64,000 nt of DNA from positions 64,001-128,000 of the forward strand of contig JAHQWK010000016.1 of NCBI GenBank assembly GCA_029856145.1, written 5' to 3'. Under the pieces are notes generated by a model. That model was not told where the DNA came from, ran no database searches, and saw only the letters and a list, made by a program, of their open reading frames with translations. This DNA comes from Promethearchaeia archaeon (lineage in GTDB: Archaea; Asgardarchaeota; Lokiarchaeia; Sigyniarchaeales; SOKP01). Positions 741 through 57,365 of this stretch are shown piece by piece. Made by a program: the position numbers and the translations under genes. The first letter of the stretch is position 1. Every line of letters starts with the position of its first letter.

Positions 741-1587
741 AAATATAATACACACAGTAAAGGTTCAAAATATTATTGAGGAATGTAAAGATGTTAAAAC
801 CTTAGTTTTTAACATGAAAAATAGCAAAAATGAAAACTACATCACACCGAAACCGGGGCAATTTGTTATGATATGGGTACCTGGTATAGATGAAATTCCA
901 ATGTCCATATCTGGGTGTGATAATAATGGTAATTGGGCAATTACAGTAAAAAATGTTGGAGAATGCACAAATGCTATGTGTAAATTAAACATTGGAGATT
1001 ATATTGGGGTAAGAGGTCCTTTAGGTAATCACTTTAAACTTCCAACTAATAACTCAAAAAAAATTTTCATAATTGGTGGCGGTATTGGAATGGCTCCACT
1101 AAAATTCCTATCAACAAAACTCACAGAGATGAAAATAAAACATACACTCGTAGAAGGAGCTAAAGATAAAAACGATCTAATGTTTATGGAGTATTTTCAA
1201 ATATCTACATCAGATTATTCTGAAGTTGATTATTGTACAGATAATGGAAGTCATGGTACCAAGGGTGTTGCATCTTATGTTTTCAAAGAAATTGTAGAGA
1301 AATTAACTGAAAAAAATCTTCCAAATCTAATTGTTTATTCCTGTGGTCCAGAAATCATGTTGTATAAATTATTTCAAATATGTCAAGAGTACAACATTGA
1401 ATATTATGCTAGTCTTGAAAGAATCATGAGGTGTGGATGCGGATTATGTGGGCTATGCACATTAGATCCATTGGGATTACTCGTATGTAAAGATGGACCG
1501 ATTTTTAATTCAAAAACTCTAAAGAAAATCCAAGATTTTGGAAAATACCAAAGAGATTTCACTGGAAAAAAAATCGGTATTGAGTGA
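730..1587 (+). CDS. pyrK: Dihydroorotate dehydrogenase electron transfer subunit; probable ATT start at 730 (ORF track starts at 814)
   Basis: PGQFVMIW, RGPLGN, GGGIG, SCGP, and the 2Fe-2S motif CGCGLCGLC..VC; the in-frame upstream segment VKVQNIIEECKDVKT matches the FAD-domain start; follows pyrD. Confidence 0.93.
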   Translation: MLTENIIHTVKVQNIIEECKDVKTLVFNMKNSKNENYITPKPGQFVMIWVPGIDEIPMSISGCDNNGNWAITVKNVGECTNAMCKLNIGDYIGVRGPLGNHFKLPTNNSKKIFIIGGGIGMAPLKFLSTKLTEMKIKHTLVEGAKDKNDLMFMEYFQISTSDYSEVDYCTDNGSHGTKGVASYVFKEIVEKLTEKNLPNLIVYSCGPEIMLYKLFQICQEYNIEYYASLERIMRCGCGLCGLCTLDPLGLLVCKDGPIFNSKTLKKIQDFGKYQRDFTGKKIGIE

Positions 1588-1704
1588 ATTTGCATATGAG
1601 TTAAAGGGCTTAAATCAAAAAATATTAACTTAATGTCTATATATATTACTTGAGAAAAATAAGATCTTCACAGTAAAACAAATTATTTTCTAGCTTAAAA
1701 TATA

Positions 1705-3333
1705 ATGGGTTCTTTAGAATCTGATAATCCTGAAAAAATTAAAAGAATTTCAAGAGAAATAATAGCTTATTTAATAAATAATCCCGAAACACCCCGTGAA
1801 AAAATAACAAATATTAAAGGAAAAATAAGTAAAAAATATAAATATAATAAAGTAATAAAAAATGCTACTATCTTAGATTATGCATCATCAAAAGAAAAAA
1901 ATAAAATAACTCAGATTCTGAAAAGAAGAAAAACCAGAACTTTATCTGGAGTATCTGTCATAGCTATTATGACTGAACCTCTTCCATGTCCTGGAACATG
2001 TATATATTGTCCTGGACAAGATTCTCAACCAGGGGAAAAAGTTGCTCAATCTTATACTGGTCGAGAACCCGCTGCCATGAGATCTATTCATAATAATTAC
2101 AATCCTTACTTACAAGTCCAAAGCAGAATTAATGATTTAGAAGCAATAGGGCATACAATTGATAAAATTGAACTAATTATAATGGGGGGTACATTCTTAT
2201 CAACTGATCCAGAGTATCAAACAGAATTCATTAAAGGAGCTTTAGAGGGAATAATAGAACAGGAAACAAGCAGTTTAGAAGAAGCCAAGAAACTCGCTGA
2301 GTGCTCCAAAAGACGTGTTATAGGGATAACTATAGAAACAAGACCGGATTACTGTAAAGAAAAAGATGTAGATCGAATGTTAAATTATGGAACGACTCGC
2401 GTTGAAATTGGAATACAAACGGTCTATGATGATATATTTAAACTCGTAAAGAGAGGGCATACTACTTTAGATAGCATAGAGGCCATAAGAATTGCTAAGG
2501 ACGCTGGTTTAAAAATAAATGCCCATATTATGCCCAATCTCCCAGGTTCTGATTATTCAAAAGACATAGAACTTTTTGATGAGTTGTTTTCCAACTCAGA
2601 TTACCGCCCTGATATGCTAAAAATATATCCTACACTTGTAATCAACGGTACTGAATTATATAATTGGTGGAAGAAAGGGAAGTATTCCCCTTATTCAGAT
2701 GAGGAATTAATTGATTTAATCGCAACAGTTAAAAAGATGCTTCCGCCCTATGTACGAATTCAAAGAATAATGAGAGATATCCCTGCCAACCTAATCGAAG
2801 CGGGATGTAGAAATAGCAATTTAAGACAATTGGTTCAAGAAAAATTAAAAGAAATAAATGAAACTTGTAAATGCATTAGATGTAGAGAGTATGGGATCAG
2901 GAAAAGAAAAGAAATTATCGATGAAAACTCTTTCGATGATATTAAGTTGTATAGACTAAATTATGAAGCATCCTATGGTAATGAGGTTTTTCTATCTTTT
3001 GAGAATAAAGTAGAAGATTATTTAGCGGGATATCTTCGTTTAAGACAACCATCTGAATATGCTCATAGACCAGAATTAAATAATGGGAAAACAACGATAG
3101 TAAGAGAAATTAAAGTAGTTGGTGAACTTGTTCCAACAGATTCGAAACCTAACTATTACACTCAAATTCAACATCGAGGATTTGGAAAATTGTTGATGGA
3201 AAATGCTGAAAAGATATCGTCTGAAGATTTTAATGCAGAAAAATTAGCTGTTATCAGTGGTTTCGGAGCTAGAGATTTTTTCAGAAATTTGGGATATAAA
3301 CTAGATGGTGTTTATGTTTCTAAGTTTCTATAA
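1705..3333 (+). CDS. elp3: Elp3 tRNA U34 carboxymethyltransferase (radical SAM + GNAT)
   Basis: TRTLSGV, CPGTCIYCP, QSYTGREPAA, MGGTF, ETRPD, QHRGFGKLLM. Confidence 0.96.
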   Translation: MGSLESDNPEKIKRISREIIAYLINNPETPREKITNIKGKISKKYKYNKVIKNATILDYASSKEKNKITQILKRRKTRTLSGVSVIAIMTEPLPCPGTCIYCPGQDSQPGEKVAQSYTGREPAAMRSIHNNYNPYLQVQSRINDLEAIGHTIDKIELIIMGGTFLSTDPEYQTEFIKGALEGIIEQETSSLEEAKKLAECSKRRVIGITIETRPDYCKEKDVDRMLNYGTTRVEIGIQTVYDDIFKLVKRGHTTLDSIEAIRIAKDAGLKINAHIMPNLPGSDYSKDIELFDELFSNSDYRPDMLKIYPTLVINGTELYNWWKKGKYSPYSDEELIDLIATVKKMLPPYVRIQRIMRDIPANLIEAGCRNSNLRQLVQEKLKEINETCKCIRCREYGIRKRKEIIDENSFDDIKLYRLNYEASYGNEVFLSFENKVEDYLAGYLRLRQPSEYAHRPELNNGKTTIVREIKVVGELVPTDSKPNYYTQIQHRGFGKLLMENAEKISSEDFNAEKLAVISGFGARDFFRNLGYKLDGVYVSKFL

Positions 3334-3498
3334 CAAACTTTTTATTAATTATACAATCTTCTTGGCAGAATCGTATTTTCTTAAAATAAAAACAGTTAAT
3401 TCTCATAACTTATATTTGAAAAACTTTTTTTTTTAATAATTTTAAATAGATGAAATATTACTATATTTATGTCAAAAATGTGTGAGTAATGAATTAAA

Positions 3499-4587
3499 AT
3501 GGTTTCTGAAAAGCCTTTATCAAAAAAAAAAATAGCTCAACAAACAATTTCTCTTTCACCAGCACTTAAAGATAGAATCGAGAAATATGTAAAAGAAAAT
3601 AATGAAAAAAATCCTGAGGATGAAAGGTTTAGGAGTGTTTCCTCTTTTTATAATTATGTGATGACGCTTTCAATGGATAGTCTTGAAAAAGGAAAGAACC
3701 TTGATGACTTAAAATCTTTTGTAGATGCTGAAATTAAAGGCTTCTTCGATAAAATTACTTTTAACGCTTTAATTCCTTATTATGAAACTGCTATAAGAAC
3801 CAATCGTTATACACATCTTTTTTTTGAAAAAAATACCTTTTTTTACTTAACTCTAAGAAGACTTTATTTGGCTCGAATGGACCCTTACGATAATATTAGC
3901 ATTAAGACCATATTCAATAGAGTCAGAAACTTTTTATTTTCAAATAATCTTACTAGGGAAGTTAATTTGGACCTTTTTACTGGAAAGACTGGAAAAGATT
4001 TATCTGGAGTATTTGAATATGCTGGAATATACAAAAATTTAACTTTTGAAAATTGTAAATATAATGCTGCACTTTTCGGATTGTTAGGTGTGAAAATAAC
4101 TAACTTTTTGTATTCAGATAAAGATGATTACTTCAGGTTCGATTTAAAAACTACAGACTTATTTTATAGAAAAGATTTAGCAAAGAAAGAGAGAATAAAA
4201 CTAATCAACCATAATCTCTCTTATTTTATCAATTATCTTAGGATTATTGATGATAAAGCCTATTATTTTTGGATGAAATTAGCTGATGATAAACGGGTTA
4301 TTATCACATTCAATAATGAAGAAACTAAAAATGATTGGATAAATTTAATACAAAGCGAAATCGAAAAATTTGGAGATAAAGAGGATTATCCTCTTAATAT
4401 GTTAAAATTCTTTGAAAAATTACATTGGATTGAAATTGAAAGTGAAAAGGATCTAATCTTTCACTTTAGATTATCTAAAACCAAATACCAAAATGAAAGA
4501 GAATTTTTAATAGAGACTCTTTCAAAAAAATCTAAAATCTCACAAACAAATGGGAAATACCAAGTTAAAAAGCTTAATGATTATTGA
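3499..4587 (+). CDS. Putative regulator: N-terminal ribbon-helix-helix plus uncharacterised C-terminal domains (paralog A)
   Basis: QQTISLSPALKDRIEKYV...SVSSFYNYVM fits the RHH strand-helix-helix pattern; co-linear with the 4962 paralog. Confidence 0.6.
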   Translation: MVSEKPLSKKKIAQQTISLSPALKDRIEKYVKENNEKNPEDERFRSVSSFYNYVMTLSMDSLEKGKNLDDLKSFVDAEIKGFFDKITFNALIPYYETAIRTNRYTHLFFEKNTFFYLTLRRLYLARMDPYDNISIKTIFNRVRNFLFSNNLTREVNLDLFTGKTGKDLSGVFEYAGIYKNLTFENCKYNAALFGLLGVKITNFLYSDKDDYFRFDLKTTDLFYRKDLAKKERIKLINHNLSYFINYLRIIDDKAYYFWMKLADDKRVIITFNNEETKNDWINLIQSEIEKFGDKEDYPLNMLKFFEKLHWIEIESEKDLIFHFRLSKTKYQNEREFLIETLSKKSKISQTNGKYQVKKLNDY

Positions 4588-4603
4588 ATTTTAATATCGA
4601 ATT

Positions 4604-4712
4604 AAAAAAAAAAAAGAAAAGACCTCGTCCTCTTTACTCCCCAAATTTCCCCTTTTCTTGTCTTTATGGCGGGACCCCTGCAAATCCCCTTGATCTTTAT
4701 CGCTAATAATTG
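4604..4712 (-). ncRNA. Candidate ~100-nt small RNA / G-tract element
   Basis: Minus-strand TTTTTAAA box at 4744-4737, four GGGG runs, then a T12 tract at 4615-4604; ends approximate. Confidence 0.3.
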
Positions 4713-4961
4713 CCCAAATATAATTTTTCAAGAGCATTTAAAAACGTTACTAATAGGTGTTTGTTTCAATGATCATAATATTAGATAACTCCAATAAGAA
4801 AACATGAAAAGTAAAAGAATAAAAGCTTATAATTAGAAAGAAATGTATCTTAAAAAAAATTAATATACTTACAAATTTTCATTTAAAATATATAAAAACT
4901 TATTTAATATGACTTTTCATCTAATATAAATTTAAAAATTAGAGAATATATAAAACATATT

Positions 4962-6038
4962 ATGACCTCAAAAAAATATCTTTCAAACAAGAAAACTGCC
5001 CAACAAACAATTTCCATTTCTCCAGCTCTTAAAGATTGGATAAAAAGGTATGTAAATGTAAATCACAGAGAGAATCCTAATGATGAGAGATTTAAGAGTA
5101 TAAGTTCGTTCATTACTTATATTTTGGATAATATTATGAAACTTTTTAAAGAAGGCAAAACCATTGATGATTTTAAGAGAGTAGAAGATCAAGTTTATAA
5201 AGATTTTTTTGATAAATTTACGTTTAAAGCCACAATTCCCCTTTATGATATGGTAGCAGAGAGCAATAGATATGTTCCAATTTCTTTTGATTTCATTACA
5301 CGATTTATTATAGCTGTTTATCATTTTTATCGTAGTATTTATTTAAAGGAAAGAGGCCATGAAGGGTGGAAACTATTATTCGAACGCTTTAAAAATCGAG
5401 TATATCCTTCCAATATCGTAAAAGAATTGAGACTTGATATTTTTACTGATAAAAATAAAAAGTATGGAACAGCTACTTTGGAATTTGTTGGTAAGCAGAG
5501 AAATTTACATTTCGAAAATTGTAAATTTTTTGCTGCTATATGTGGCATTCTAGGGGTAAAGGTCACTGATTTTATTTATTCTCCTAAAGATTTTTACTGT
5601 AGACTTGATTTATTAGAAACTCCTCTCGTGTTCAGAGAAGAATTAGCTAAGAAAGAAAGAATAAAACTCTTAAAAGAAAACGTAGATTATATTATAAACT
5701 ATAATAGAATGCTCGATGATAAAGATAAGTATTTATGGATGAATTTAGCAGAAGATAATAATTTATTTATAAGTTTTAAGAATAAAATAGTTTTTAATAA
5801 ATGGATTAAAACCATCGAGGAAGATTTGCGAAAATTTGGTACACAAGAAGATTTTCTTAGTAAAATATTACAATTCTTTAATAAACTCCATTGGATTAGA
5901 ATTGAAAATATAAAAGATCTCTCCTTTCGAATTGAACAATCTCTCGAAAACAATGATGTACAAAAACATTTTTTAATAGAATATCTTTCACAGCATTCAG
6001 AAGTTTCTCAAAATAATGAGATATATCATTTAAAATAG
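4962..6038 (+). CDS. Putative regulator: N-terminal ribbon-helix-helix plus uncharacterised C-terminal domains (paralog B)
   Basis: QQTISISPALKDWIKRYV...SISSFITYIL; shares FENCK, LGVK.T.F.YS, LAKKERIKL and FF.KLHWI blocks with 3499. Confidence 0.6.
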   Translation: MTSKKYLSNKKTAQQTISISPALKDWIKRYVNVNHRENPNDERFKSISSFITYILDNIMKLFKEGKTIDDFKRVEDQVYKDFFDKFTFKATIPLYDMVAESNRYVPISFDFITRFIIAVYHFYRSIYLKERGHEGWKLLFERFKNRVYPSNIVKELRLDIFTDKNKKYGTATLEFVGKQRNLHFENCKFFAAICGILGVKVTDFIYSPKDFYCRLDLLETPLVFREELAKKERIKLLKENVDYIINYNRMLDDKDKYLWMNLAEDNNLFISFKNKIVFNKWIKTIEEDLRKFGTQEDFLSKILQFFNKLHWIRIENIKDLSFRIEQSLENNDVQKHFLIEYLSQHSEVSQNNEIYHLK

Positions 6039-53341: not shown

Positions 53342-54082
53342 TTAATGAAGATGTTGATGGATTTGTCTATTATTTAATGATTTTAATGCAATTTTGGTTG
53401 ATTCCTCTGCTTGTTGCTTTGTAACCATTCCAATTGTCACAGCACAAATATTATGATTGGCAATATATTGAAACGCTATATCCGGTTTAATTTCTCCTGC
53501 TGCTAGAGTTTTCATTCCTACATAATAAAAATCATTTGTATTATCAACAATTTCTTCTAATTCTTTCGCGTTTCCCATTAAAAATCCATTTGCATTAAAG
53601 GGTATTAAAAATACTCTTACATTTAAAGAATTTTGAATACAATATTTAATTGTTGGAATTGGATCATGAGTTGCGATTCCTGAAATTATTCCATAACCCG
53701 ATATTTCATCTAAGAGTCTCAACAAATCTGTTCCTTTATTATCAGAAATCATACCATGAACGAATATTATTTTTGCTCCCTTTTCGATTAAGATTTCAAT
53801 TTTAGGATCTACACCTGGATAGGTAGATCCCGTTATCACATAATCACTATAAATTTCACTCATTATTTGGGCCGCTTCCATAATTTTTCCACTAGGTATT
53901 ACCTCAATCCCACGAGCACCTTTCGCATAGCTAGTTTCTAAAATCTCCAACATTGCCTTTGGGTTATTTAAAAATTTTCTACGCCATTCAAATGTGTTAT
54001 ACCCAAATTGTCCGGCTCCAATAAAGGGAGACGTTCCCACAGAAACTAGTGGGATATCAATATCATCAATTTTACAAAAAAT
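53342..54082 (-). CDS. Hypothetical TIM-barrel protein, aldo/keto-reductase-like; probable ATT start at 54082
   Basis: GTSPF, GIATH, PFN..G, GMKTLAAG, TIGM; frame open upstream of GTG 54040. Confidence 0.55.
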   Translation of the reverse strand: MFCKIDDIDIPLVSVGTSPFIGAGQFGYNTFEWRRKFLNNPKAMLEILETSYAKGARGIEVIPSGKIMEAAQIMSEIYSDYVITGSTYPGVDPKIEILIEKGAKIIFVHGMISDNKGTDLLRLLDEISGYGIISGIATHDPIPTIKYCIQNSLNVRVFLIPFNANGFLMGNAKELEEIVDNTNDFYYVGMKTLAAGEIKPDIAFQYIANHNICAVTIGMVTKQQAEESTKIALKSLNNRQIHQHLH

Positions 54083-54253
54083 TTTGACCCCTTCTTTAAA
54101 TATTAGTTAATTTAATTTAAATTTGATAAGTGATTATTATAAAGCGAATTATAAAATTTTTAGTCAAGAATCATATAAATACATAAACAATATTATTCAT
54201 AAAATATAATAGAAAATCAATTTAGATTCTTATTTTTTGAAGAGGAGATAAGA

Positions 54254-56332
54254 ATACCACAAATTAATGGCGTTATTTGTAATACTTTAACCTTCTATAA
54301 TCAAGATTTTGAAATCATCACAAGCCTTAATTCACTTCTTATACGCCATATTCTTACAAATGAAGCAAATTGTCTTCTTCTTTTTGGTAGGATGGGTGAA
54401 GGAAATCTATTTTCTGCGACAGAAAAAATAAAACTAATAGAATTAGTATTAGAAATTACAGAGAAGAAAATTCCTATTCTTATGGGTTTTTATAGTGATA
54501 AGGTCGATGATTTAATACAACAGATTGAAAATTTGGGTAAAAAATTTGAATCTCTAAGTTTTATGATTACTCCTCCAATATCTGGAAAAACCTCTCAAGA
54601 TGAAATAAAAGCTTATTTCGAAAATATTTTGGGTTCTATTACTTCTAAAAATCAGATCTATTTGATTAATAATCCACTACTATTCAGTGGAAATGAACTT
54701 GAACCAAGTTTACTAAAAAATATGATGGAATTCCCTAATTTGAAAGGAATAATTGATTCTTTTTATAATATTAAAAACTCTAAAGCCTATATTCAAAATT
54801 TGAATAGCGAGTTCTCTGTTATTTGTGGGATGGAGGAAAAATTTCAAACATTTCTGCAACTTATTCCATTAAACATGAGAAAATACTGTGGAATTCTCTC
54901 TAGTCTTAGTAATTTAGTTAATATGTACTCAAAGTTATATAGTTATGCTATAGAAGATAACCTTTTAGAAATTCTACAATTACAAGAACAGATAAACGAT
55001 ATTGGAAATAAAATATATGAAGTTAGAACTAATGAAGTTAAAAAGAAAATTGGGTTGGAATATGCGTTCCTACACCTATATAAAGACTCAATATCAAGAA
55101 CTAATGCTGATATAAATCATTTTTATGAAGAATTGGAAACTCAAATTGATCCAATAAGTAAAGGAAGAATCGAGGCTACTATGAATTCTTTACTAAATAG
55201 TAAACAGATTTATCAACTCTATTTTCTCGGTAAAAAAGATCTTTACCAATTTGATGAAATCATTAATACTTTTTCAAATATCGATGTTTTAGTTGAACAA
55301 GGTAAAGTAAAAAAAATTAAAGGTCCTTACATTGCTGATTCCAATACTCTGTATAGAGTGAATTTTGAAAATAGTCAATTAGTCTTCAGATTTCGTACAA
55401 GTCAATTTTTCAAAAGTGAAAATTTAATCAAAGAAAAACTTTTATATCCATTTTTAGATAAAACTTTAAGTTCTAATGATATTGATTTGAGGCAGAAAGT
55501 AAAAGAAATCATTAGTACTAAAACAGGGTCATATCTCTTCAATAAGGAAAAACTTCCGATCATTCCTGTATGTGATTTAATTTACTATGATGAGACTAAG
55601 GAAATAGTTCCTTATGCTTTCTCAGTAAATGAATATATTCGAGGGAAGCCTTTATTTCAACTTATTAATCAATATATCAGTGAAGGAAAAAATTTGTATG
55701 CAAAGAAATTTTTAGATTTATTCAGTAATTTAGGTGAACATTTAGGATGTTTACACATGATAAAATTTGATTCATTTTATAAGAATATTAGCAATATTGG
55801 TAAAACACCTAAAAATTCTTATTCAGATTATTTTGAAAGTGAATTTGAGCAAAGACTCCAAGAAGCGAAAAAAAATAAAATAGATTTCTGCGATGAAATT
55901 AGGGCTTTCTATCGAGATAATAATTCATTAATCGAAGAAGAAAATGATTACGTTCTTTTACATAATGATTTTAAAAGTCAAAATATTATCGTTAAAGAGG
56001 AGTTAGGTGTCATAAAAATTAACGGTATTGTGGATTTTGATAATTGGTGTGTTGGTAGCCGAGCTCAAGACTTCATTAAAATTGATTATTTGATTTTAAA
56101 ACCTTTAAATAATCCCTCATTTTATAGCTCTTTTTATAATTCATATTCGAAATTTTACACAATAGATAAAGATTTTAAGAAAAAAATTGAATTGTATAAG
56201 TTACTCTGGCTTTTAAATGAATATAATTTTGAATCAAAATTAATAAGAAAGTCAGATCAGATGGATCTTATTAGTACACCGTCGTTATTATTAGAAAATT
56301 ATTTATTTGAAATAAAAGCAATAATTCGATAA
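54254..56332 (+). CDS. Fusion of inactive DHDPS-like barrel and APH/choline-kinase-like phosphotransferase; probable ATA start at 54254
   Basis: GVICNTLTFY..GRMGE..PP..YF..NNP..GIIDS (DapA-like) plus LLHNDFKSQNI and GIVDFD. Confidence 0.8.
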   Translation: MPQINGVICNTLTFYNQDFEIITSLNSLLIRHILTNEANCLLLFGRMGEGNLFSATEKIKLIELVLEITEKKIPILMGFYSDKVDDLIQQIENLGKKFESLSFMITPPISGKTSQDEIKAYFENILGSITSKNQIYLINNPLLFSGNELEPSLLKNMMEFPNLKGIIDSFYNIKNSKAYIQNLNSEFSVICGMEEKFQTFLQLIPLNMRKYCGILSSLSNLVNMYSKLYSYAIEDNLLEILQLQEQINDIGNKIYEVRTNEVKKKIGLEYAFLHLYKDSISRTNADINHFYEELETQIDPISKGRIEATMNSLLNSKQIYQLYFLGKKDLYQFDEIINTFSNIDVLVEQGKVKKIKGPYIADSNTLYRVNFENSQLVFRFRTSQFFKSENLIKEKLLYPFLDKTLSSNDIDLRQKVKEIISTKTGSYLFNKEKLPIIPVCDLIYYDETKEIVPYAFSVNEYIRGKPLFQLINQYISEGKNLYAKKFLDLFSNLGEHLGCLHMIKFDSFYKNISNIGKTPKNSYSDYFESEFEQRLQEAKKNKIDFCDEIRAFYRDNNSLIEEENDYVLLHNDFKSQNIIVKEELGVIKINGIVDFDNWCVGSRAQDFIKIDYLILKPLNNPSFYSSFYNSYSKFYTIDKDFKKKIELYKLLWLLNEYNFESKLIRKSDQMDLISTPSLLLENYLFEIKAIIR

Positions 56333-56447: not shown

Positions 56448-57365
56448 ATGCCTAGATTTAAAAAAGAATTAGAATTAGCAATCGAATTAGTCCGTAAAGC
56501 AACACAGATTGCAGAATGGTTTAGTAAAAAAGGATTCGAATCCTTTTTAAAGTTAGATCAATCGCCAGTTACATTAGCAGATTTTGCATCTCAAATATAT
56601 ATAGTATCCCAGTTAAAGGAATACTTCCCGGATGATGAAATAATAGCAGAAGAAGAAAATATTGATTTAATAAATATTAAAGCAGAAGATCTGATAAAAC
56701 AATGCTTCAATGAATTAAATTTAAAAAAATTAAAAAACGTAAAAGAAAATATTAGATTTCGAGGTAAATCTTCTGAGCGTCAATGGACAGTAGATCCCAT
56801 TGATGGTACGATTGGATACCAAAAGGGACTGTCTTATGCGGTAGGTATTGGATTTATGATAAAATCAAACCCTAAAGTATGTGCTATTGCAGTGCCAAAC
56901 TATAATGAAAAACTATTAGCTATTTTCACTGCGGAGGAAGGTCAAGGATCTCAAGTTTCCTATAATAATAAGAATTTTAATCCAATTAGAGTCAGTCAAA
57001 ATGAAAATTTACATATGATTCGTTTATGCCATTCTTTACATTATGATCAACCTTGGGTTCTTAATTTTGCAAAAAAAATTGGTATAAGGAAATTTATTCA
57101 AATTGACAGCATGGCAAAATTTTGCAAGGTAGCTGAAGGAACTGCTGACCTTTATATTAAACCTTTAGATGCGGTACATTCATTTACATGGGATTTTATG
57201 CCAGGAGATTTGATTGTAAAGGAAGCAGGAGGAAATGTCACAGACATTAATGGTGAACACTTAAAGTTTAAAAAAGAAAAATGTTTATGGACTGCACCTG
57301 GTATTGTTGCTTCAAATGGTATCCTTCATAAAAAAATTTTAGAATTATATCAAAGTAATCACTAA
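56448..57365 (+). CDS. Inositol monophosphatase family, 3'(2'),5'-bisphosphate nucleotidase (HAL2-like)
   Basis: SPVTLADFASQ, IAEE, VDPIDGT, IDSMAK, WD..PG..IVKEAGG. Confidence 0.88.
   Translation: MPRFKKELELAIELVRKATQIAEWFSKKGFESFLKLDQSPVTLADFASQIYIVSQLKEYFPDDEIIAEEENIDLINIKAEDLIKQCFNELNLKKLKNVKENIRFRGKSSERQWTVDPIDGTIGYQKGLSYAVGIGFMIKSNPKVCAIAVPNYNEKLLAIFTAEEGQGSQVSYNNKNFNPIRVSQNENLHMIRLCHSLHYDQPWVLNFAKKIGIRKFIQIDSMAKFCKVAEGTADLYIKPLDAVHSFTWDFMPGDLIVKEAGGNVTDINGEHLKFKKEKCLWTAPGIVASNGILHKKILELYQSNH

What the first reader, a model, noticed from the sequence alone, without database searches (positions are those of the whole stretch)
54254..56332. Dead DHDPS-type aldolase barrel fused to an intact APH-like kinase
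Seen: the N-terminal half follows the DapA/NAL pattern, but GTTGE is GRMGE, the catalytic Tyr of LYN is replaced (LINNP) and the Schiff-base Lys of GIKDS is replaced (GIIDS). The C-terminal half retains HxDxxxxN (HNDFKSQN) and DFD. Known: those residues are essential in DHDPS-family catalysis. Inference: a pseudo-enzyme ligand-sensing or oligomerisation module that regulates a small-molecule or protein kinase; I do not recognise the fusion.
Basis: partly seen in the sequence, partly recalled or inferred. Interest (0 to 1): 0.7.

Follow-up and report, generated by a model that had tools for sequence, protein, structure and literature searches.

The report
Dead aldolase barrel fused to kinase
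This Lokiarchaeial gene encodes a 692-residue protein in which a DapA/NanA-type aldolase barrel that has lost its catalytic lysine is joined to an apparently working small-molecule-type kinase; relatives show it arose by fusing two neighbouring genes, after which the aldolase site was lost several separate times, but what the protein does is still unknown.

Summary
Window 54254-56332 (+) encodes a 692-aa protein. Its N-terminal half is a DHDPS/NAL-family TIM barrel in which the Schiff-base Lys, the catalytic Tyr and the Thr-Thr pair are replaced. Its C-terminal half is an APH-fold kinase that keeps HxDxxxxN and DFD.

It is not an assembly artefact. More than 100 full-length fused orthologs exist, and all those located in GTDB genomes lie in one family of Lokiarchaeia.

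- In two sister families the halves are adjacent, tightly coupled, separate genes, and there the barrel keeps Lys, Tyr and Thr.
- Basal fused lineages also keep them, so the fusion came first.
- The lysine was then lost at least three to four times. An AU test rejects a single Lys-less clade (p 1e-67).
- The dead barrel stays under purifying selection (dN/dS about 0.15-0.25).
- One subclade has also lost the kinase catalytic Asp.

Neither the substrate nor the role of the dead barrel could be determined.

The gene starts at ATA. ATA or ATT occupies this start position in many species of the genus, so public gene calls often drop 46 residues.

I found no literature, and databases call it only "dihydrodipicolinate synthase family protein". 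First readers of this scan noted the same family in other genomes.

The parts
54241..54246 (+). Shine-Dalgarno-like GAGGAG, 7 nt upstream of the start
   Evidence: Read directly from the sequence. GAGGAG lies the same distance upstream of the start position in most genus-g1 orthologs.
54254..54256 (+). Non-canonical ATA start codon
   Evidence: No ATG, GTG or TTG lies between the upstream stop and 54392. Orthologs begin M/L/V-P-Q-I-N-G at this exact position. Among 34 loci, the codon here is ATA in 14, ATT in 4, ATG in 8, TTG in 3 and GTG in 1.
54254..56332 (+). Whole coding sequence, 692 aa plus TAA stop
   Evidence: Full-length orthologs are 680-701 aa and 50-83% identical.
54254..55213 (+). 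DHDPS/NAL-family TIM barrel with its C-terminal helices (aa 1-320), catalytically dead
   Evidence: Pfam DHDPS E 5.4e-21. In the AF2 model, residues 1-310 average pLDDT of roughly 85-95 per 10-residue block, with dips to 73-84 at 251-300 and 76 at 311-320. Foldseek matches NAL and DHDPS structures with target-normalised TM 0.83.
54386..54400 (+). GRMGE in place of GTTGE (the Thr44/Thr45 equivalents are Arg and Met)
   Evidence: These positions vary among orthologs.
54569..54583 (+). TPPIS in place of TPYY (the Tyr107 equivalent is lost)
   Evidence: It is lost in the whole clade, including the Lys-intact split forms.
54662..54676 (+). LINNP in place of LYNxP (the catalytic Tyr133 equivalent is Ile138)
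   Evidence: Among orthologs this position is I in 34, Y in 31 and H in 11 of 100.
54746..54760 (+). GIIDS in place of GIKDS (the Schiff-base Lys equivalent is Ile167, codon ATT)
   Evidence: Among orthologs this position is N in 72, I in 21, V in 2 and K in 2 of 100.
55214..55306 (+). Junction (aa 321-351): helices that correspond to the N-terminal lead-in of the stand-alone kinases
   Evidence: Alignment with the split kinases. This stretch has low pLDDT in the full-length model but is helical in the kinase-only model.
55307..56329 (+). APH-fold (protein-kinase-like) phosphotransferase domain, aa 352-692
   Evidence: Pfam APH E 4.4e-9 and Fructosamin_kin E 1.2e-6. The kinase-only AF2 model has pLDDT 89.2 and pTM 0.87. 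VIA-align gives Z 20.4 to APH(2'')-IIIa and Z 16-20 to many small-molecule kinases.
55379..55399 (+). Predicted beta3 strand LVFRFRT, with Arg379 where kinases usually have the ATP-binding Lys
   Evidence: R379 is nearly invariant, with K in a few orthologs. The assignment to beta3 is inferred from strand order in the model.
55427..55456 (+). Predicted alphaC helix with invariant Glu394-Lys395
   Evidence: These residues are invariant in fused and split kinases. Their role is inferred.
55961..55984 (+). Catalytic loop HNDFKSQN (HxDxxxxN)
   Evidence: It aligns with HRDFHAQN of 3csv and HGDLHGTN of the hygromycin kinase 6iy9. Among orthologs, H is kept in 94, D in 93 and N in 99 of 100.
56030..56044 (+). 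VDFDN, equivalent to the metal-binding IDF(G) motif
   Evidence: It aligns with IDFQD of 3csv. The first Asp is conserved in 80 of 100 (G 15, N 5) and the second in 98 of 100.

Best explanation
The gene encodes a member of an unnamed protein family confined, as far as searched, to one order of Lokiarchaeia. The ancestor was a two-gene cassette. It comprised a divergent but catalytically complete DHDPS/NAL-type class I aldolase followed directly by an APH-fold kinase, with overlapping or nearly touching reading frames. That arrangement suggests the two proteins worked together, probably on consecutive steps with one sugar-like or 2-oxo-acid-derived metabolite (inferred). In the window's family the two genes fused. 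After the fusion, the Schiff-base lysine was lost independently in several lineages, and the Tyr and Thr-Thr residues then eroded. The window's protein is at the far end of that path: Lys to Ile, Tyr to Ile, and Thr-Thr to Arg-Met. Its barrel therefore cannot make the enamine/Schiff-base intermediate. It is nevertheless kept under purifying selection, so it most likely serves the kinase as a non-catalytic partner, for example as a structural or oligomerisation platform or as a pocket that still binds the old ligand (inferred). The kinase half keeps the catalytic loop, the metal-binding motif, a basic beta3 residue and the alphaC Glu. It is most likely an active ATP-dependent phosphotransferase acting on a small molecule of unknown identity (inferred from motifs and fold only).
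For: - Domain assignment and motif replacements.
- Folds: the barrel matches NAL/DHDPS at TM 0.83. The kinase matches APH(2''), APH(4), fructosamine-3-kinase, homoserine kinase, MTR kinase, maltokinase and N-acetylhexosamine kinase at Z 17-20.
- The fusion is real and conserved. There are 157 hits, with more than 100 full-length proteins from different assemblies. It was found in 52 of 53 genomes of the genus and in five further genera of the same family.
- Split, adjacent, same-strand genes occur in sister families f3 and f4. Their barrels carry GSTGE, LYNNP and GIKDS.
- Fused forms with an intact Lys, Tyr and Thr-Thr are basal on the tree: P0113, P0119, P0140, P0143, and the G170, G155 and G153 proteins.
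- Lys loss needs 4 changes on the tree, and well-supported branches force at least 3. Holding all Lys-less rows in one clade costs 365 lnL units (p-AU 1e-67).
- Purifying selection: dN/dS is 0.15-0.25 for the dead barrel and 0.09-0.26 for the kinase in pairs with dS 0.2-0.9. The one closer pair, L013/L015 (dS about 0.05), gave 0.42 for the barrel. Dead barrels diverge only 1.1-1.26 times as fast as their kinase domains, against 0.87-1.0 in Lys-intact pairs.
- The genome has no other DHDPS-family gene that could supply the lost activity, apart from a DapA-Fae fusion.
- The kinase is a distinct small family. Only 21 representatives out of 1.84 billion reach E<=1e-30, after which the score drops from 377 to 118 bits.
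Against: - No substrate, ligand or partner is identified.
- Gene neighbourhoods carry little information. The window's region is broadly syntenic housekeeping DNA, and the split pairs sit beside proteasome and other unrelated genes.
- The kinase sites are not universally kept. A subclade has HNN instead of HND, and one member also lacks the loop Asn. The first Asp of DFD is Gly or Asn in 20% of orthologs. The conserved role may therefore not need catalysis at all.
- The beta3 position holds Arg rather than the canonical Lys.
- The full-length model gives no confident domain arrangement (pTM 0.53; residues 324-391 below pLDDT 50).
- The gene is missing, or only a remnant, in some close relatives (G189, G229, G227), so it is dispensable.
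Confidence: 0.6

Rival explanations
1. The whole protein is non-catalytic. Both halves are pseudo-enzyme modules kept as a metabolite or nucleotide sensor, or as a scaffold. The intact kinase motifs in the window's copy would then be a not-yet-eroded leftover.
For: One subclade of the same genus (P0020, P0029, P0030, P0077, P0086/G206, and also P0049) has the catalytic Asp replaced by Asn. G206 also lacks the loop Asn (HNNFQSQS). Their 690-aa frames are nevertheless intact. The first Asp of DFD is Gly or Asn in 20% of orthologs. Earlier first-reader notes on other genomes saw the same thing.
Against: Across 100 orthologs, 93 keep HxD, 99 keep the loop Asn and 98 keep the second Asp of DFD. The kinase domain has the lower dN/dS of the two halves in most pairs. 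The branches leading to the HNN forms are longer than the median (0.22 against 0.09), which suggests relaxed constraint there rather than the norm.
Confidence: 0.17
2. The C-terminal domain is a protein kinase of the YihE/RdoA (SrkA) type, not a small-molecule kinase, and the barrel recruits or mimics its target.
For: E. coli YihE (1zyl) is among the structural matches at Z 16.5. Some source annotations call fragments 'Ser/Thr protein kinase RdoA'.
Against: About thirty small-molecule kinases score as well or better (Z 16.5-20.4). The NCBIfam and Pfam hits are to APH, fructosamine kinase, choline kinase and EcKL models. The ancestral pairing with a live aldolase points to metabolism.
Confidence: 0.1
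3. The barrel is still an enzyme but uses chemistry that does not need the Schiff-base lysine.
For: The barrel is under purifying selection. Several fold-typical pocket residues stay invariant: N139, D168, C191, G192 and E194.
Against: The residue replacing the Lys is not conserved. It is N, I, V, T, S or D, as expected for loss rather than a new catalytic residue. No new invariant Lys appears in the barrel core. The Tyr and Thr-Thr residues erode progressively after the Lys is lost.
Confidence: 0.05
4. The fusion is an artefact: an assembly error, a frameshift error or a gene-calling error.
For: The halves are separate genes in some relatives.
Against: The same continuous frame of about 692 aa occurs in more than 100 proteins from NCBI, JGI, ENA and Logan assemblies and in about 80 GTDB genomes with no internal stops.
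Confidence: 0.01

Closest known systems
DHDPS/N-acetylneuraminate-lyase superfamily of class I aldolases (DapA, NanA, archaeal KD(P)G aldolase, YagE/YjhH)
   Same: It shares the (beta/alpha)8 barrel with C-terminal helices (TM 0.83), passes the Pfam PF00701 cut-off and has the same order of motifs.
   Different: It lacks the Schiff-base Lys, the catalytic Tyr and the Thr-Thr carboxylate-binding pair. Even the Lys-intact relatives lack the PYY tyrosine. None of them reaches any NCBIfam equivalog cut-off (dapA 74-108 bits against 206). They form a separate, uncharacterised branch.
APH / choline-kinase / fructosamine-3-kinase group of protein-kinase-like small-molecule kinases (PF01636, PF03881)
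   Same: It has the same fold (Z 17-20), the HxDxxxxN catalytic loop and the IDF-type metal-binding motif.
   Different: It is not close to any characterised member; the best PDB sequence match has E 1e-4. It has Arg at the beta3 position, an N-terminal helical lead-in, and an insertion around residues 442-462.
Fusions and complexes of an APH-fold kinase with the enzyme of the neighbouring metabolic step: TreS-maltokinase (Pep2), ACAD10/11 (kinase + acyl-CoA dehydrogenase domain), AAC(6')-APH(2'')
   Same: An APH-fold kinase is physically joined to a second enzyme module, which in TreS is a TIM barrel. 5jy7, 8v3v and 4ork all appear among the matches. The Lys-intact fused and split forms here look like this kind of arrangement.
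   Different: As far as I know, both modules are active in those systems. Here the partner module has lost its catalytic residues in most lineages. The partner is a DHDPS-type barrel, a combination I did not find described.

Membership tests
DHDPS/NAL family (Pfam PF00701) | Sequence profile match above the curated cut-off | tested here: met
   75 bits against a cut-off of 22.1, residues 4-262.
DHDPS/NAL family (Pfam PF00701) | (beta/alpha)8 barrel with the family's C-terminal helical domain | tested here: met
   In the AF2 model, residues 1-310 are confident (10-residue block means of pLDDT 73-95). Foldseek gives target-normalised TM 0.82-0.86 to NAL, DHDPS and KDG aldolase.
DHDPS/NAL family as an active class I aldolase | Schiff-base lysine on strand 6 (E. 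coli DHDPS K161) | tested here: not met
   Ile167 in GIIDS. The position is N, I or V in 95 of 100 orthologs.
DHDPS/NAL family as an active class I aldolase | Catalytic tyrosine of the YNxP motif (Y133) and the GxT/S-TGE carboxylate-binding pair | tested here: not met
   Ile138 in LINNP, and Arg46-Met47 in GRMGE.
DapA (4-hydroxy-tetrahydrodipicolinate synthase, TIGR00674 equivalog) | Score above the equivalog cut-off | tested here: not met
   74.5 bits against 206.15. The genome's real DapA-like gene scores 235.7.
APH phosphotransferase family (Pfam PF01636) | Sequence profile match above the curated cut-off | tested here: met
   36.9 bits against 23.2, residues 435-608.
APH phosphotransferase family (Pfam PF01636) | Bilobal protein-kinase-like fold | tested here: met
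   The kinase-only model has pLDDT 89.2. It gives Z 20.4, rmsd 3.8 over 292 residues to 3tdv, and Foldseek E 5e-11 to 4n57.
APH phosphotransferase family (Pfam PF01636) | Catalytic loop HxDxxxxN and metal-binding Asp (IDF/DFG equivalent) | tested here: met
   HNDFKSQN at 570-577 and VDFDN at 593-597, aligned to 3csv and 6iy9.
APH phosphotransferase family (Pfam PF01636) | ATP-anchoring beta3 Lys paired with the alphaC Glu | tested here: inconclusive
   The basic residue is Arg379, with Lys in a few orthologs. Glu394 is invariant. The assignment rests on the model's strand order, not on a ligand complex.
Fructosamine-3-kinase (Pfam PF03881) | Specific family membership rather than the general APH clan | tested here: inconclusive
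   28.4 bits against a cut-off of 22.4, but the match overlaps the stronger APH match. The FN3K structures score Z 17-17.8, no better than many other kinases.

The most novel reading that the evidence does not exclude
The family records, step by step, how an allosteric pseudo-enzyme domain is born. A bifunctional aldolase-kinase was converted several separate times into a kinase whose dead barrel still binds the former aldolase substrate or product. The barrel would now gate the kinase, or, in the doubly dead subclade, act purely as a metabolite sensor.
Probability: 0.25. Interest if true: 0.65.

Novelty: new variant of a known kind. Interest (0 to 1): 0.55.

Why it matters
Both domains belong to well-known families. 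The combination, and the state of the barrel, are not described in the searched literature, and databases label these proteins simply as dihydrodipicolinate synthase family members. That label is misleading for metabolic reconstruction of Asgard archaea, because these proteins cannot be DapA. The family preserves all stages side by side in living lineages: separate coupled genes, a fused protein with both sites intact, a fused protein with only the lysine gone, fully eroded barrels, and forms in which the kinase site is gone too. This makes it a rare natural series for asking why dead enzyme domains are kept. It also adds a well-supported case of ATA/ATT translation starts in Lokiarchaeia, which causes systematic N-terminal truncation in automatic gene calls.

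Tried and rejected
- **Assembly or frameshift artefact.** Rejected by the number of independent full-length copies.
- **Real DapA, NanA or KDG aldolase.** Rejected: all equivalog scores are far below their cut-offs and the catalytic residues are missing.
- **Function from gene neighbourhood.** The window's flanks (SRP54, an RNA methyltransferase, dihydroorotase, AMMECR1, a HAL2/CysQ-like phosphatase, DinB, a class II aldolase, a xylose-isomerase-like barrel) are conserved across the family as a block. This looks like general synteny, not a pathway. The split pairs have unrelated neighbours.
- **Naming the kinase through relatives.** The search among shorter proteins returned only fragments of the fused family. 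The nearest outside proteins hit only generic APH, homoserine-kinase and Bud32 models, far below their cut-offs. Cluster look-ups gave no names beyond 'APT family kinase'. The ESM Atlas gave only generic APH clusters.
- **Literature.** Four full-text searches found nothing.
I took contexts from the genome search and the fetch from genomes instead.
With a single split kinase it found only that kinase's own contig.
- **The divergent upstream gene** gave no Pfam, NCBIfam or PDB match. The Atlas placed it only among unnamed archaeal clusters.
- **Domain arrangement.** I could not examine the interface between the domains.
Full report
**1. What is in the window**

The standard ORF list gives 54392-56332 (+), 646 aa from the first ATG. 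The frame is open from about 54206, however. The stretch upstream of that ATG encodes the first strand and helix of a DHDPS-type barrel. Orthologs begin M/L/V-P-Q-I-N-G exactly where the window has ATA at 54254, 7 nt after GAGGAG.

In 34 related loci the codon at this position is ATA in 14, ATT in 4, ATG in 8, TTG in 3 and GTG in 1. The GAGGAG box is kept throughout the genus. The 46 residues that would otherwise be lost are about 70-80% identical between species. An earlier first-reader note on this window (e1-5527156) had proposed the same start.

**2. Domains and catalytic residues**

Pfam finds DHDPS on residues 4-262 (E 5.4e-21) and APH on residues 435-608 (E 4.4e-9), plus an overlapping fructosamine-kinase match. 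The NCBIfam dapA score is 74.5 bits against a cut-off of 206.

I aligned the protein to solved DHDPS and YagE chains and to the genome's own intact DapA-like protein. The replacements are as follows.

| Canonical motif | Here | Residue change |
|---|---|---|
| GTTGE | GRMGE | Thr-Thr to Arg-Met |
| TPYY | TPPIS | Tyr107 equivalent lost |
| LYNxP | LINNP | catalytic Tyr to Ile138 |
| GIKDS | GIIDS | Schiff-base Lys to Ile167 |

The kinase half has HNDFKSQN (570-577) and VDFDN (593-597). These align with the catalytic loop and metal-binding motif of the APH-like structure 3csv and of the hygromycin kinase 6iy9.

An AlphaFold model of the whole protein, built from 66 aligned sequences, is confident for the barrel and for the kinase C-lobe. 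It is not confident for the junction (pTM 0.53). The barrel matches NAL and DHDPS structures at target-normalised TM 0.83. A model of residues 330-692 alone has pLDDT 89.2 and pTM 0.87. It matches many small-molecule kinases about equally well (Foldseek E around 1e-10; VIA-align Z 16-20). These include APH(2''), APH(4), fructosamine-3-kinase, homoserine kinase, MTR kinase, maltokinase, glucosamine kinase and N-acetylhexosamine kinase. The fold is secure, but the substrate is not indicated.

**3. The fusion is real, conserved and taxonomically narrow**

A search of 5.8 billion proteins returned 157 hits. More than 100 are full-length (about 680-701 aa, 50-83% identical) and come from NCBI, JGI, ENA and Logan assemblies. 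Where named, they are called only 'dihydrodipicolinate synthase family protein' of Asgard MAGs.

In 400 GTDB genomes of the phylum, strong full-length matches occur only in the window's family. They were found in genus g1 (52 of 53 genomes), g11 (10 of 10), about half of g12, and g5, g10 and g3. A second search with a stand-alone kinase as query found the kinase only in this family and in families f3 and f4 of the same order.

A profile of the kinase domain, run against 1.84 billion cluster representatives, found only 21 with E<=1e-30. These are fused proteins of 680-728 aa, stand-alone proteins of 385-419 aa, and fragments. Below them the score falls from 377 to 118 bits, into generic APH-like proteins. 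A few members of the genus lack the gene or keep only a remnant with stop codons (G189, G229, G227).

**4. Split forms and the order of events**

In families f3 and f4 the two halves are separate ORFs on the same strand that overlap or nearly touch (G133, G134, G281, G282, G280). Their barrels carry GSTGE, LYNNP and GIKDS, so Lys, Tyr and Thr are all present. Stand-alone barrel paralogs in genus g11 also carry them.

Some fused proteins keep all three features as well: P0113, P0119, P0140, P0143 and the proteins of G170, G155 and G153. The G166 protein has lost only the Lys (GTTGE, LYNNP, GIIDS).

I built a tree of 122 sequences rooted on the split forms. The Lys-intact fused lineages are basal. 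The Lys/no-Lys character needs four changes, of which well-supported branches force at least three. A 29-taxon IQ-TREE analysis gives the same picture. Constraining all Lys-less sequences into one clade costs 365 log-likelihood units (p-AU 1e-67).

The sequence of events is therefore:

1. A coupled gene pair.
2. Fusion with both sites intact.
3. Repeated loss of the lysine.
4. Gradual erosion of the Tyr and Thr-Thr residues.

The window's subclade (Arg-Met, Ile, Ile/Val) is among the most eroded. Its Ile167 codon, ATT, is one step from the AAT (Asn) codon, and Asn is the residue in its sister lineages.

**5. The dead barrel is maintained, not decaying**

Among species pairs of the genus with dS of 0.2-0.9, dN/dS is 0.15-0.25 for the barrel and 0.09-0.26 for the kinase. 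The one closer pair (L013/L015, dS about 0.05) gave 0.42 for the barrel and 0.15 for the kinase.

At matched kinase divergence, dead barrels have diverged 1.1-1.26 times as much as their kinase domains. In Lys-intact pairs the ratio is 0.87-1.0. The relaxation is mild.

The residue now occupying the lysine position varies (N, I, V, T, S or D). No new invariant lysine appears in the barrel. This argues against a replacement catalytic mechanism. The genome's only other DHDPS-family gene is a DapA-like protein fused to a formaldehyde-activating-enzyme domain. The lost aldolase activity is thus not supplied by a paralog.

**6. The kinase is mostly, but not always, intact**

Across 100 orthologs the catalytic-loop His, Asp and Asn are kept in 94, 93 and 99. 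The second Asp of DFD is kept in 98, but the first in only 80 (Gly in 15, Asn in 5).

One subclade of the genus has HNN in place of HND, and the G206 protein also lacks the loop Asn. First-reader notes on other genomes of this scan describe these 'double pseudo-enzyme' copies and the VGFD variants independently. My alignment confirms them. This keeps open the possibility that the conserved role of the protein does not depend on catalysis. The window's own copy has all the kinase motifs.

**7. Function**

Nothing I could run identifies the substrate.

- The Lys-intact barrels belong to no characterised equivalog.
- The kinase's nearest outside relatives are unnamed.
- The neighbourhoods are uninformative.

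The most economical reading has three parts. The ancestral pair acted on consecutive steps of one small-molecule pathway. This is the pattern of TreS-maltokinase and ACAD10/11, whose structures appear among the kinase matches. In most lineages, including this one, only the kinase step is still catalysed. The barrel is kept because the kinase depends on it for structure, for assembly or for ligand binding. All three points are inference.

**8. Verdict**

I found no literature on the fusion. I rate it a new variant of known kinds, of moderate interest.

Noticed in passing
window 54241-54256; loci L001-L020 and L044-L047: The gene starts at ATA, 7 nt after GAGGAG. At the same position in 34 related loci the codon is ATA in 14, ATT in 4, ATG in 8, TTG in 3 and GTG in 1. 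Public gene calls for several orthologs are therefore truncated to 646 aa (P0001, P0015, P0031, P0032, P0053).
   Followed up: yes
own genome, outside the window: G000:C13:171709-172557 (-), ORF L030:883-2391 (-): This 503-aa protein joins a catalytically complete DapA-like barrel (GTTGE, PYY, LYNIP, AIKDS; dapA 235.7 bits, above the cut-off of 206) to a C-terminal formaldehyde-activating-enzyme domain (TIGR03126, 193 bits, cut-off 118). Frames of about 495-504 aa with the same weak match recur in other genomes of the family.
   Followed up: partly
window 53342-54040 (-), perhaps extending to an ATT at 54082: This gene is divergently transcribed from the fusion gene. It has no Pfam, NCBIfam or PDB match, and the Atlas places it in unnamed clusters found across Archaea. 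It sits next to the fusion gene in 5 of 14 other loci examined, including a Lys-intact one (G155).
   Followed up: partly
window 56448-57365 (+): This is a HAL2/CysQ-like member of the inositol-monophosphatase family (TIGR01330 E 2.3e-44, below its cut-off). It lies 115 nt downstream on the same strand and follows the fusion gene in 8 of 14 other loci. No functional link is shown.
   Followed up: partly
P0145 (728 aa, ENA metagenome): This is a fused protein that groups with the split-form clade next to the G133 pair. It may be a second, independent fusion or a read-through gene call.
   Followed up: no
L026 (G170:C9), ORFs 1040-2344 (+), 2368-3399 (-), 3386-4441 (-): A stand-alone, Lys-intact paralog of the barrel (38% identical to the window's barrel) sits beside a Zn-dependent sugar-alcohol-type dehydrogenase and an MFS/GPH-type transporter. 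This looks like sugar or sugar-acid catabolism. The same genome also has a Lys-intact fused copy.
   Followed up: partly
G227:C1:373607-374026 (-): In one 99%-complete genome of the same genus, only the last 140 or so codons of the gene remain, with two stop codons. This shows the gene can be lost.
   Followed up: no
L029 (G279:C1), ORF 2605-5019 (-): An 805-aa ORF with a hydrophobic N-terminus matches only the last 130 or so residues of the kinase domain (38% identity). This is a different architecture.
   Followed up: no
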